Source: Candidatus Helarchaeota archaeon
GTDB lineage: Archaea > Asgardarchaeota > Lokiarchaeia > Helarchaeales > RDOG01
DNA length: 64,000 nt
Reading direction: 5' to 3'
Assembly (NCBI GenBank): GCA_019058315.1
Contig: JAHPZH010000001.1
Location: forward strand, 1,073,432-1,137,431
Part shown: positions 23,618 through 25,236 of the stretch, in pieces
How the letters are laid out: each line of letters starts with the position of its first letter
How positions within the stretch are numbered: position 1 is the stretch's first letter
Program-made: the position numbers and the translations under genes
Notes under the pieces: generated by a model
Seen by the model: only the letters and a program-made list of their open reading frames with translations
What the model was told of the DNA's origin: nothing
Databases searched by the model: none

Positions 23618-24718
23618 ATGGCAGAAAAAAATGTTCTTTTTGAGGAAATAAAAGATAGGATCAACAAAATAGTTCGAGGAAATCGATATATTATATCTGA
23701 ATTTGAAAAATTCAAAGGATCTATAGAAAATCTTCAAAAAAATATTCAAGATGTTTCTGATCCTGATAAATCTTTAGCAGAAATCAAAGATAAATTGGAT
23801 AGTCTTTCAGATTTGTTTAAATTAGGTAAAACTGTAAAAAATTTAAAACCAACTATTAATGAATTAAATGAGACTATGAAATCAATGAGTGAAATAAAGA
23901 AAACAGTAGATGATATTAAAAAAAGTGTAACTACCTTGGGGGATTTAAAATTACTTGCTTCTGAACTTAAAATGACAATGGCAGAAATTCGAGAAACTTC
24001 AAAAATAATGAAAATGGATGTAACTACTGCAGAAATTGAATTAGCTAAAATAAAACCAACTATTAAACCACCAACTATTAAACCAATAGAAAAAATAAGA
24101 CCGATTTCAAGTTCTAAATCAATAGAACAAAAAACCGTTAGTTCAGACCCCCTTACTAAAGGTCCTTTAAAAGCAAGTCCAATGTATAAAATAAAAAAAC
24201 CAGAATCAGTTACCGAAACCAAAGCTGAGTCAATTAAAACAGAACCAATCATAATAAAACCAACTACAGTGAAATCAATTAAATCAGAACCGACTATTAT
24301 AAAACCAATCACAATGAAATCAATTAAATCAGAACCGACTATTATAAAACCAATTACAATGAAATTAATTAAATCAGAACCGACTATTATAAAGCCAATC
24401 ATAAAAAATTCAAATAAAGTAGATAAAATTATAAAAGCACCTTCGAAAAAGAAAGGTATAACTCATCCGATTGTATTAGAAATTTTTCAACTAATAAAAC
24501 AACGAGCCCAGAGTGGGGAATCTGCAGAAGCGCTTTCCAAGCATATTGAGAATGCAAGAGACACGATTGCTAAAAGTTGGAAATGGCATCCTGCTTTATT
24601 GGAACTAGGGACATTCGCAAGGAAACTGAAGAAACTTCCTCCTAAAAACCCCCCATCACCCGATCTAATTAAAATTTTATTAGAAAAATTGGAAGAATGG
24701 AAAGCAAAAATGACCTAG
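23618..24718 (+). CDS. Coiled-coil protein with Pro/Lys repeat linker and helical C-terminal domain
   Basis: Heptad-rich N-terminus, 15-aa repeats, C-terminal WHPALLEL...EEWK. Confidence 0.75.
   Translation: MAEKNVLFEEIKDRINKIVRGNRYIISEFEKFKGSIENLQKNIQDVSDPDKSLAEIKDKLDSLSDLFKLGKTVKNLKPTINELNETMKSMSEIKKTVDDIKKSVTTLGDLKLLASELKMTMAEIRETSKIMKMDVTTAEIELAKIKPTIKPPTIKPIEKIRPISSSKSIEQKTVSSDPLTKGPLKASPMYKIKKPESVTETKAESIKTEPIIIKPTTVKSIKSEPTIIKPITMKSIKSEPTIIKPITMKLIKSEPTIIKPIIKNSNKVDKIIKAPSKKKGITHPIVLEIFQLIKQRAQSGESAEALSKHIENARDTIAKSWKWHPALLELGTFARKLKKLPPKNPPSPDLIKILLEKLEEWKAKMT
24231..24410 (+). repeat. Four 45-bp in-frame tandem repeats
   Basis: Unit caattaaatcagaaccgactattataaaaccaatcacaatgaaat with few substitutions, at 24231, 24276, 24321 and 24366. 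Confidence 0.9.
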
Positions 24719-24837: not shown

Positions 24838-24940
24838 TTCCCTAGACTCGATGAGGAGATTTAACGGCAAGGATGACTATTAGTAAAACTGATAGATATG
24901 AATTATTATAGTTACTCCGAGATACCTCTTCGAGAGGGAA
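24838..24940 (+). ncRNA. Dual-guide box C/D sRNA for 23S rRNA 2'-O-methylation
   Basis: C AUGAGGA 24851-57, D' AUGA 24873-76, hairpin 24877-95, C' AUGAAUU 24898-904, D CCGA 24917-20; guides complementary to conserved LSU H70/H71 (CCUUGCCG) and H69 (AGUAACUAUAA); outer stem ttccct/agggaa. Confidence 0.8.
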
Positions 24941-25023: not shown

Positions 25024-25236
25024 TTATATCGATACATCTTTAGGCTTTAGGGTTTTTCGATTTTGGCTTTTAGCTTTTTCAATAGCGTTATCTAAAATCT
25101 TTTTTAAAGTGTTATTTAATGTCTTATTTAGAACTTCTGATGAAACATTACATCCCTTACTATTCACATATTTACGAATAGTTGATTTAATGATCATGCT
25201 TCCTAATTTTACCTTTTTAGTTTGTTTTTCAGCCAT
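25024..25236 (-). CDS. Histone-fold protein, alpha3-truncated type, with basic N-terminal extension
   Basis: IIKSTIRKY...NVSSE...AKSQNRKTLKPKD; RKTxxxxD motif close to the C-terminus. Confidence 0.85.
   Translation of the reverse strand: MAEKQTKKVKLGSMIIKSTIRKYVNSKGCNVSSEVLNKTLNNTLKKILDNAIEKAKSQNRKTLKPKDVSI

What the first reader, a model, noticed from the sequence alone, without database searches (positions are those of the whole stretch)
24838..24940. Hidden box C/D guide RNA aimed at two eukaryote-conserved LSU methylation sites
Seen: a non-coding segment closed by ttccct/agggaa, with four non-consensus but mutually compensated boxes. C AUGAGGA pairs with D CCGA (G-C replaces U-U), and D' AUGA pairs with C' AUGAAUU across an 8-bp hairpin. 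The D' guide (24858-72) is complementary to CCUUGCCGUUAAAUC and the D guide (24906-16) to AGUAACUAUAA. From recalled rRNA sequences, these match LSU H70/H71 and H69, about 30 nt apart, as is typical for archaeal dual guides. The N+5 rule gives G1945 and A1913 (E. coli numbering), i.e. yeast Gm2288 (snR75) and Am2256 (snR63). The D guide also implies a eukaryote-like (GG)AGUAAC H69 stem. Inference: one Asgard RNA does the job of two eukaryotic snoRNAs, and consensus-box searches would miss it. The host 23S is not in this window.
Basis: partly seen in the sequence, partly recalled or inferred. Interest (0 to 1): 0.9.

Follow-up and report, generated by a model that had tools for sequence, protein, structure and literature searches.

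The report
Archaeal rRNA methylation guide RNA (H69/H71)
This is a real, unannotated small guide RNA of a Loki-type Asgard archaeon that should direct sugar methylation of two neighbouring nucleotides of the large ribosomal RNA; the same double guide occurs across Asgard archaea and in Sulfolobus- and Ignicoccus-type archaea, so it is a new example of a known kind, not a special link to eukaryotes.

Summary

- **D guide:** it pairs perfectly over 11 nt with the host 23S helix 69. The N+5 rule selects host A2128, which is E. coli A1913.
- **D' guide:** it pairs over only 8 contiguous bp, not 15, with helix 71, 32 nt downstream. It selects host G2160, which is E. coli G1945.
- **Family membership:** a profile built only from members of other lineages finds this element as the single hit in the window (36.2 bits, E 3e-10) and in the whole genome.
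- **Covariation:** guide and target change together in three lineages.
- **Enzyme:** the genome encodes fibrillarin, Nop5 and L7Ae.

The same D'-to-H71, D-to-H69 double guide is published for Ignicoccus hospitalis (sR91). I also found it in Sulfolobales, Desulfurococcales and Ignisphaera, in most Asgard lineages, and in 98 of 151 genomes of the window's own class.

This copy is a divergent member, with off-consensus boxes, a 15-nt D' spacer and extra sequence after box D. The scan has reported this family before on other genomes. Expression and methylation are untested.

The parts
24838..24843 (+). 5' strand of the outer flanking stem (UUCCCU), complementary to AGGGAA at 24935-40. It may belong to the precursor rather than the mature RNA.
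   Evidence: Sequence. Related members carry CCCC...GGGG at the same place. Native 5' and 3' flanks pair far better than mismatched partners across 66 members.
24847..24850 (+). 5' strand of the inner stem (CUCG). It pairs with CGAG at 24931-34. Alternatively, UC 24848-49 pairs with GA 24921-22 directly after box D, giving a minimal 2-bp terminal stem.
   Evidence: Sequence. The G001 homologue has CUCA/UGAG, a change on both sides.
24851..24857 (+). Box C, AUGAGGA (consensus RUGAUGA; U5 is G here).
   Evidence: Aligned with the box C of 100 other members.
24858..24872 (+). D' spacer and guide, 15 nt. Positions 24865-72 (CGGCAAGG) pair with host 23S 2156-2163 (CCUUGCCG, helix 71). N+5 selects G2160, which is E. 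coli G1945.
   Evidence: Guide and target covary in G001, G122 and family f4.
24873..24876 (+). Box D', AUGA.
   Evidence: NNGA is conserved at this place in the family.
24877..24895 (+). Internal hairpin between D' and C': 8 bp (24877-84 with 24888-95) and an AAA loop. It acts as the canonical stem of a C'/D' K-turn.
   Evidence: RNAfold -6.3 kcal/mol; 0 of 200 shuffles reach it. Hairpins of unrelated sequence occupy the same place in other members.
24898..24904 (+). Box C', AUGAAUU. A5-U2 and U6-A1 can pair with box D' AUGA.
24905..24916 (+). D spacer and guide, AUUAUAGUUACU. Positions 24906-16 pair perfectly with host 23S 2124-2134 (AGUAACUAUAA, helix 69). N+5 selects A2128, which is E. coli A1913.
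   Evidence: nUUAUAGUUACU is identical in the f1, f3, f16, f26, f27 and f4 members aligned or parsed. It reads UCAUAG in G122 (f18), whose H69 reads CUAUGA.
24917..24920 (+). Box D, CCGA (consensus CUGA).
   Evidence: Box D position 1 forms a Watson-Crick pair with box C position 6 in 98 of 101 members.
24921..24940 (+). 3' flank. An 11-nt stretch (24921-31) is absent from the f3, f26 and f27 members, followed by CGAGAGGGAA (24931-40). CCUCU 24925-29 can also pair with AGAGG 24933-37 as a small 3' hairpin.
   Evidence: The G001 homologue has a 16-nt stretch here and a CCCUC/GAGGG hairpin. Its role is unresolved.

Best explanation
The locus encodes a box C/D sRNA, a member of an old archaeal double-guide family.

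**Inferred mechanism, from the established archaeal C/D sRNP model.** L7Ae binds the C/D K-turn and the C'/D' K-turn. A Nop5 dimer and two fibrillarins assemble on them. The guide upstream of box D pairs with 23S helix 69, and fibrillarin 2'-O-methylates the nucleotide opposite guide position 5: host A2128, equivalent to E. coli A1913. The guide upstream of box D' pairs with helix 71, 32 nt away, and aims at host G2160, equivalent to E. coli G1945. Holding both strands at once may also help this subunit-interface region fold.

**What is shown.** The layout, both complementarities, conservation, guide-target covariation, and the presence of the enzyme genes.

**What is inferred.** Transcription, sRNP assembly and methylation.

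**My odds.** About 0.9 that this is a genuine family member, about 0.85 that the H69 guide is active, and about 0.5 that the H71 guide is active in this organism. The H71 guide has only 8 bp, a 15-nt spacer, and a 4-nt rather than 3-nt bulge in the C'/D' K-turn.
For: - **Boxes and guides** sit at the stated places.
- **Host targets:** an 11-nt perfect match in H69 and an 8-nt match in H71, 32 nt apart, both starting directly at the box.
- **Numbering:** E. coli A1913 and G1945 checked on a real 23S.
- **Homologues** with the same layout occur in the same family and order and in other Asgard families.
- **Profile test:** a profile that excludes this lineage hits 24845-24922 at 36.2 bits, E 3.3e-10, and nothing else in the window. 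It gives one hit in the own genome and one hit in 98 of 151 genomes of the class.
- **Guide-target covariation at H71:** host CCUUGCCG with guide CGGCAAGG; G001 CCUUGUCGGA with UCUGACAAGG; f4 CCUUGUCUGGU with ACUAGACAAGG.
- **Guide-target covariation at H69:** G122 CUAUGA with guide UCAUAG.
- **Dual-guide pattern:** 47 of 400 genomes of the phylum match, against 0 matches of the backwards control.
- **K-turn pairing:** box C position 6 with box D position 1 is Watson-Crick in 98 of 101 members, as G-C (66) or A-U (32).
- **Stems:** terminal flanks and internal hairpins are kept by different sequences.
- **Enzyme genes:** fibrillarin, Nop5 and L7Ae are present in the genome.
- **Published precedent:** sRNAs detected by RNA-seq carry AUGAGGA/CCGA boxes (IHOsR92) and the same two guides (IHOsR91).
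Against: - There is no expression, binding or methylation data for this organism.
- The D' duplex is only 8 contiguous bp. Its energy against the 23S is not unusual compared with shuffled guides (24 to 53 of 300 shuffles reach it).
- The D' spacer is 15 nt, against the usual 10-12.
- The C' strand has 4 nt, not 3, between the hairpin and its GA.
- Eleven nucleotides separate box D from the long flanking stem. Only 2 bp can form directly next to the C/D K-turn.
- Several relatives have lost the H71 guide (G006, f27, G282, G270), so that half is dispensable.
Confidence: 0.85

Rival explanations
1. It works as a single guide. Only the D guide (H69, A1913 equivalent) is active in this organism. 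The C'/D' half is decaying and no longer directs methylation of the H71 G.
For: The D' duplex is 8 bp with a 15-nt spacer. The bulge on the C' strand is 4 nt. The G001 homologue has GU instead of GA in box C'. The H71 guide has been lost or changed repeatedly: G006, f27, G282 and G270, and S. acidocaldarius sR113.
Against: The 8 bp start directly at box D' in the exact family register and have tracked the host's own C at H71 (host GCCG, relatives GUCG). Seven to 20 bp is quoted as sufficient for a productive interaction.
Confidence: 0.3
2. It acts mainly as a folding chaperone. By pairing with H69 and H71 strands at the same time, the RNA helps domain IV fold, and methylation is secondary.
For: Dennis et al. 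propose chaperone roles for double guides. The two targets lie 32 nt apart. Relatives carry insertions between or within these two helices in their 23S genes.
Against: The register relative to boxes D and D' is kept exactly across most of the family. Only the N+5 rule explains that. There is no direct evidence for a chaperone role.
Confidence: 0.1
3. It is a silent relic: the sequence is a decaying copy that is no longer transcribed or assembled.
For: This copy scores lower than several relatives against the family profile, and it has off-consensus boxes and extra sequence after box D.
Against: It is the only copy in the genome. The 12-nt D guide is intact and identical to that of distant relatives. 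The D' guide carries a change that matches the host rRNA.
Confidence: 0.04
4. It is a chance assembly of box-like words in AT-rich intergenic DNA.
For: Short box-like words are common in DNA of 30% G+C. An alternative reading (box C AGGAUGA 24870-76, a 12-nt spacer, CUGA 24889-92) also exists.
Against: Profile E-value 3.3e-10. Conservation across a class and beyond. Guide-target covariation. The alternative boxes are not conserved in homologues, and the alternative spacer has no rRNA target beyond chance (97 of 300 shuffles reach it).
Confidence: 0.01

Closest known systems
Ignicoccus hospitalis C/D box sRNA sR91 (IHOsR91; Dennis et al. 2015, BMC Genomics 16:632, PMC4644070, Additional files 1 and 3)
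   Same: The order and register of both guides are the same. The D' guide ...CGGCAAGC + CCGA aims at the G of CUUGCC in H71. The D guide ...CAGAGUUACG + CUGA aims at the second A of GUAAC in H69.
   Different: IHOsR91 has consensus box C and D, 12-13-nt spacers, a short D'-C' linker and G+C-rich guides. The window's copy has AUGAGGA/CCGA, a 15-nt D' spacer with 8 bp, an 8-bp internal hairpin and extra 3' sequence. IHOsR91 was detected by RNA-seq; this one has no expression data.
Sulfolobus acidocaldarius sR113 (same paper)
   Same: The D guide CUCAGAGUUACU + CUGA has the same register on H69 and aims at the A1913 equivalent.
   Different: Its D' guide (CAUAAAAUAG) does not aim at H71. Other Sulfolobales (Acd1, RB850M, Stygiolobus, Acidianus) do keep both guides.
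Yeast snR63 (Am2256; human U46/SNORD46, Am3739) and yeast snR75 (Gm2288; Arabidopsis AtU15, Gm2278)
   Same: Rfam's eukaryotic family snoR442 (RF01232) shares the guide-plus-box string AUAGUUACUC-GA with the window (18.4 bits, below its cut-off of 50).
   Different: These are two separate RNAs in eukaryotes. There is no detectable sequence-family relationship: nothing reaches any Rfam gathering score. The position equivalence with yeast rests on knowledge of the yeast H69 and H71 sequences and was not tested here.
The same family in Lokiarchaeia family f4 and in Hodarchaeales (f16), found here
   Same: The layout and targets are the same, and each genome has a single copy.
   Different: f16 has consensus boxes (AUGAUGA/CUGA). 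f4 has AUGAAAA/UUGA. The window's family has AUGAGGA/CCGA. Only the window and G001 carry the extra sequence after box D and the 15-nt D' spacer.

Membership tests
Archaeal box C/D sRNA (L7Ae-Nop5-fibrillarin methylation guide) | Box C (RUGAUGA) and box D (CUGA) able to form a K-turn with tandem sheared G.A pairs | tested here: met
   AUGAGGA and CCGA keep both GA dinucleotides. Positions 5-2 and 6-1 pair as G-C and G-C. The 6-1 pair is Watson-Crick in 98 of 101 members. The same box pair occurs in the published IHOsR92. This is sequence-level evidence only.
Archaeal box C/D sRNA (L7Ae-Nop5-fibrillarin methylation guide) | An internal C'/D' motif forming a K-loop or K-turn | tested here: inconclusive
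   AUGA and AUGAAUU keep both GA dinucleotides and flank an 8-bp hairpin. However, the C' strand has 4 nt, not 3, between the stem and its GA. Relatives have 3.
Archaeal box C/D sRNA (L7Ae-Nop5-fibrillarin methylation guide) | A 10-12-nt guide directly upstream of box D or D', complementary to rRNA or tRNA | tested here: met
   D guide: 11 of 12 nt pair perfectly with host 23S H69. D' guide: only 8 bp in a 15-nt spacer, which meets the criterion weakly.
Archaeal box C/D sRNA (L7Ae-Nop5-fibrillarin methylation guide) | The host encodes the sRNP proteins | tested here: met
   Fibrillarin 309.8 bits, Nop5 218 bits next to it, and L7Ae 107.1 bits.
Archaeal box C/D sRNA (L7Ae-Nop5-fibrillarin methylation guide) | A stable small transcript, L7Ae binding, and 2'-O-methyl at the predicted sites | not testable with these tools
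   No RNA run holds this DNA. That is a blank, not evidence either way.
H71/H69 double-guide sRNA family (IHOsR91 type) | D' guide aimed at the G of CCUUG (E. coli G1945) and D guide aimed at the second A of GUAAC (E. coli A1913), in that order and register | tested here: met
H71/H69 double-guide sRNA family (IHOsR91 type) | Recognised by a family profile built without this lineage | tested here: met
   Model R1, built from 36 members without f1, f3 or f18: 36.2 bits, E 3.3e-10, and the only hit in the window. It is the only hit in the genome. The model is sequence-only.
H71/H69 double-guide sRNA family (IHOsR91 type) | Guides follow changes in the host rRNA | tested here: met
   H71: G000 compared with G001 and with f4. 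H69: G122.
Eukaryotic snoRNA families snR63/SNORD46 and snR75/U15 | Sequence-family membership, meaning a match to the curated covariance model | tested here: not met
   No Rfam family reaches its gathering score on the window or on 12 member loci. The best weak match is snoR442 at 18.4 bits against a cut-off of 50. The relationship is one of functional equivalence only.

The most novel reading that the evidence does not exclude
In this Loki-type lineage (the window's genome and G001) the double guide may be caught on the way to a eukaryote-style single-guide RNA. The signs are a lengthened D' spacer with weakened or extended bulged pairing, a loosened C'/D' K-turn closed by a long internal hairpin, off-consensus but Watson-Crick-paired boxes, and added 3' sequence that can fold back on the terminal stem. 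A second possibility is that the lengthened D' guide has picked up another target: a 12-bp match (3 of them G.U) to a lineage-specific variable stretch of the host 23S at 807-818.
Probability: 0.1. Interest if true: 0.5.

Novelty: new member of a known kind. Interest (0 to 1): 0.25.

Why it matters
It adds a well-supported, unannotated guide RNA to an Asgard genome. It also shows that one particular double guide, aimed at the H69/H71 subunit-interface region, is shared by Asgard and Thermoproteota archaea. Methylation of the A1913 and G1945 equivalents is therefore likely older than eukaryotes, and is not an Asgard-specific bridge to them.

In practical terms, Lokiarchaeia keep working-looking C/D RNAs with boxes far from consensus: AUGAGGA/CCGA here and AUGAAAA/UUGA in the sister family. 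Consensus-based finders and Rfam will under-annotate them. A family profile finds one copy per genome.

Tried and rejected
- **Expression:** no RNA run is listed as holding this stretch. The holders are sediment metagenome DNA runs. This says nothing about expression either way.
- **Rfam:** nothing at gathering score on the window or on 12 member loci. The permissive scan gave only weak partial matches to snoR442 and sR1.
- **Alternative box assignment** (box C AGGAUGA 24870-76, a 12-nt spacer, box D' CUGA 24889-92, suggested by the sR1 match): rejected. These words are not conserved in homologues, and the spacer has no rRNA match beyond chance.
- **Plain blastn of the 116-nt element against relatives:** mostly AT-rich noise. 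Only 3 true homologues emerged.
- **First pattern, TYATAGTTACTCNGA:** it undercounted the family because many members end the guide in G or use box D UUGA. Its backwards control also matched scattered genomes. Two further matches in the own genome (contig C11) look like chance hits in coding-like sequence.
- **RNAalifold:** it found no consensus pairs on the MAFFT alignment, because the stems are out of register between lineages. The model is therefore sequence-only. I tested stems per sequence instead.
- **Unconstrained duplex energies of single guides against the 23S:** only weakly significant. The evidence lies in the anchoring, the proximity of the two sites, and conservation.
- **Promoter and terminator:** TATA-like words 37-45 nt upstream of box C recur in some relatives. 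In this AT-rich spacer no assignment is possible, and no T-run follows the element within 45 nt.
- **Literature:** no paper on Asgard C/D sRNAs was found in the held library.

Full report
**What is in the sequence.** The segment lies in a 305-nt AT-rich spacer between two convergent ORFs: 23618-24718 (+) and 25024-25236 (-), the latter a 70-aa histone-fold protein.
- UUCCCU 24838-43
- CUCG 24847-50
- box C AUGAGGA 24851-57
- a 15-nt spacer 24858-72
- box D' AUGA 24873-76
- a hairpin, 24877-84 paired with 24888-95
- box C' AUGAAUU 24898-904
- a 12-nt spacer 24905-16
- box D CCGA 24917-20
- CGAGAGGGAA 24931-40

RNAfold gives the hairpin 8 bp including one G.U, at -6.3 kcal/mol. None of 200 shuffles reaches that value.

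**The host rRNA.** The 23S gene of the same assembly is on another contig (G000:C5:105496-108654, minus strand).
- The reverse complement of the D guide, AGUAACUAUAA, occurs once, at 23S 2124-2134 inside GGGAGUAACUAUAACUCUC, which is helix 69.
- Counting five nucleotides from box D selects A2128.
The host reads CCUUGCCGGAUAAGU.
- The 8 nt next to box D' pair with CCUUGCCG at 2156-2163, and N+5 selects G2160, 32 nt from the first site.
- RNAduplex can add 5 more pairs across a 1x2 internal loop.
- I checked the numbering on an annotated E. coli 23S.
- Yeast Am2256/snR63 and Gm2288/snR75, human Am3739/U46 and Arabidopsis Gm2278/AtU15 are as quoted in the literature. That yeast A2256 and G2288 align with these positions rests on my knowledge of the yeast sequence and was not tested here.

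**Is it more than chance?** Taken alone, the guide duplex energies are only modestly unusual. The weight of evidence comes from homologues.
- blastn found the element in a genome of the same family (G001) and in two of the same order (G003, G006). All carry the identical D guide AUUAUAGUUACU, with different boxes, hairpins and flanks.
- Pattern searches over 400 genomes of the phylum found the layout clustered by family. With a dual-guide pattern, 47 genomes matched and the backwards control matched none.
- A profile built from 36 members that excludes the window's family, its order-mates and f18 hits the window once, at 24845-24922: 36.2 bits, E 3.3e-10.
- Over whole genomes, the profile gives exactly one hit in the window's genome (E 2.3e-8). 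It gives one hit in 98 of 151 genomes of the same class, including 84 of 127 in the large sister family f4.

**Covariation.** The guides follow the rRNA of their own host.
- **H71:**
  - host CCUUGCCG with guide CGGCAAGG;
  - G001 CCUUGUCGGA with UCUGACAAGG;
  - G122 CUUGUCGGAU with AAUCCGACAAG;
  - f4 CCUUGUCUGGU with ACUAGACAAGG.
- **H69:** G122 reads CUAUGA and its guide reads UCAUAG, where the others read CUAUAA and UUAUAG.
- **Stems:** the flanks next to boxes C and D pair much better with their own partner than with partners from other members (mean -7.6 against -2.2 kcal/mol). The D'-C' linker forms hairpins of unrelated sequence. Relatedness inflates both statistics.
- **Boxes:** over 101 members, box C position 6 and box D position 1 form a Watson-Crick pair in 98: G-C in 66 and A-U in 32. 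The A-U cases are mostly family f4, with AUGAAAA/UUGA. This fits the K-turn. It reflects few evolutionary events.
box C position 5 with box D position 2 shows no covariation, 40% Watson-Crick against 38% expected. 'G-C replaces U.U' is therefore true of this sequence, but it is a lineage quirk shared with G001 and two f26 genomes, not a rule.

**Machinery.** The genome encodes fibrillarin and Nop5 side by side (C3:1273552-1275071) and two L7Ae-family proteins.

**How it most likely works.** It follows the established archaeal C/D sRNP mechanism, so this is inference. L7Ae binds the two K-turns, a Nop5 dimer and two fibrillarins assemble, and each guide forms a duplex of about 10 bp whose fifth pair from the box is methylated.
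- The H69 guide is fully canonical.
- The H71 half is weaker here. It has 8 bp, a 15-nt spacer where 10-12 is usual, and a 4-nt rather than 3-nt bulge between the hairpin and the C' GA. Relatives have 3 nt.
- Seven to 20 bp is quoted as productive, so I put the H71 site at about even odds.
- The H71 guide has been lost or replaced several times: G006, f27, G282 and G270, and S. acidocaldarius sR113. The H69 guide is kept throughout.

**An unresolved feature.** In the window and in G001, 11 and 16 nt respectively sit between box D and the 3' strand of the long flanking stem. Other relatives have the stem strand directly after box D.
- Only UC 24848-49 with GA 24921-22 can pair directly beside the C/D K-turn.
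- The inserted stretch can also pair with the 3' strand as a small hairpin: CCUCU/AGAGG here and CCCUC/GAGGG in G001.
- The outer stem may belong to a precursor, or the hairpin may be a 3' processing signal. I cannot tell which.

**Comparison with what is known.**
- Dennis et al. 2015 report helices 68, 69 and 71 as methylation hotspots in archaea, with dense sites around A1912.
- Their sequence tables contain Ignicoccus hospitalis sR91. Its D' guide (UAACUCGGCAAGC + CCGA) and D guide (AUCAGAGUUACG + CUGA) have exactly the order and register of the window's RNA.
- S. acidocaldarius sR113 has the H69 guide, and Thermoproteus tenax sR130 has the H71 guide.
- The same tables show AUGAGGA/CCGA boxes in RNA-seq-detected sRNAs such as IHOsR92.
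- A scan of one genome per prokaryotic species with the dual-guide pattern gave 114 stretches, 59 of them archaeal by record title.
  - A box C sits at the right distance in 57 of the 59 archaeal hits, against 7 of the 55 bacterial hits.
  - The archaeal hits include Sulfolobales (Acd1, RB850M, Stygiolobus, Acidianus hospitalis), Desulfurococcales and Ignisphaera.
  - They also include Heimdall/Hod, Baldr, Odin, Jord/Frey, Sif/Borr, Hermod, Atabey and Loki-type Asgard genomes.
  - Some MAGs labelled Nitrososphaerota, Crenarchaeota or Thermoproteota fall inside the window's phylum in the genome set used here. I therefore count only named Sulfolobales, Desulfurococcales, Ignisphaera and Ignicoccus as outside it.
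- The GGGAGUAAC stem of H69 is also present in Ignicoccus and Nanoarchaeum.

**Novelty and verdict.**
- The RNA is real and unannotated. No Rfam family covers it, and no paper on Asgard C/D sRNAs was found in the held library.
- It is a new member of a known kind and of an already published double-guide type.
- One RNA serving two sites is the normal archaeal design.
- This scan has reported the same family before on other genomes, with the same closest relatives. I reached IHOsR91 and sR113 independently, before reading those notes.
- What is mildly notable here is how far this class has drifted from consensus boxes while keeping the K-turn pairing, and that this lineage's copy is the most altered.

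Interest 0.25.

Noticed in passing
L033/L034 (G001 23S), L206 (G303), L261 (G191), L262/L263 (G243): Several relatives carry insertions in the 23S gene exactly in the region this RNA targets. G001 has about 250 nt between H69 and H71 (CUCUUAA|...|GGUAGCC). G303 and G191 have about 30 nt at the same place. G243 has an interruption inside H69. These look like rRNA introns or mini-insertions. The window's own 23S has none. A double guide that bridges both flanks could matter for folding or splicing there.
   Followed up: partly
host 23S 807-818 (L001, minus strand), against window 24860-24871: The lengthened D' guide also matches a lineage-specific variable stretch of the host 23S (UUUGUUGUUAAA) over 12 bp, 3 of them G.U, starting at guide position 2. 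About 0.05 such matches are expected by chance (my own estimate from pairing odds, not a tool result). The stretch is not conserved in G001.
   Followed up: partly
whole genome; G000:C5, minus strand, from base 1300118 of the reverse-complemented contig (script coordinate, not converted to + strand numbering): A strict consensus regex for archaeal C/D sRNAs finds only one locus in the 5.8-Mb genome. The sister family f4 uses AUGAAAA/UUGA boxes for this RNA. C/D sRNAs of this class are probably widely under-detected.
   Followed up: no
L005:1515-1580 (G001): Directly after the G001 homologue comes GGGGGAUGAGGA + 12 nt + CUGA. This looks like the start of a second C/D-like unit, or a partial duplicate of the 5' leader plus box C. 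The window's 3' flank (UUCGAGAGGGAA) resembles its own leader plus box C (CUCGAUGAGGAGA) in the same way.
   Followed up: no
L058-L064 (family f18): In f18, box D' (UUGA) follows CAAG directly, one nucleotide closer than in the rest of the family. N+5 would therefore select the U after the G (E. coli 1946 equivalent). Box C' is degenerate (AAGGAC) in several members, and the internal hairpin is about 30 nt long.
   Followed up: no
window 25024-25236 (-): A 70-aa histone-fold ORF (PF00808, 23.6 bits) lies 84 nt downstream of the RNA, on the opposite strand. Other notes of this scan describe it as one of a tandem pair of short histones.
   Followed up: no
L086, L089, L104, L148 and other f16 (Hodarchaeales) loci: In Hodarchaeales the RNA sits immediately after the acidic C-terminal coding end of a gene (runs of GAA/GAG), which suggests it is made from a 3' UTR. 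In L091 and L092 another C/D-like unit lies directly upstream, as in an array.
   Followed up: no
L091, L141, L160: MAGs labelled Nitrososphaerota, Crenarchaeota or Thermoproteota in their public titles are grouped within the window's (Asgard) phylum in the genome set used by the genome search: G294, G296 and G156.
   Followed up: partly
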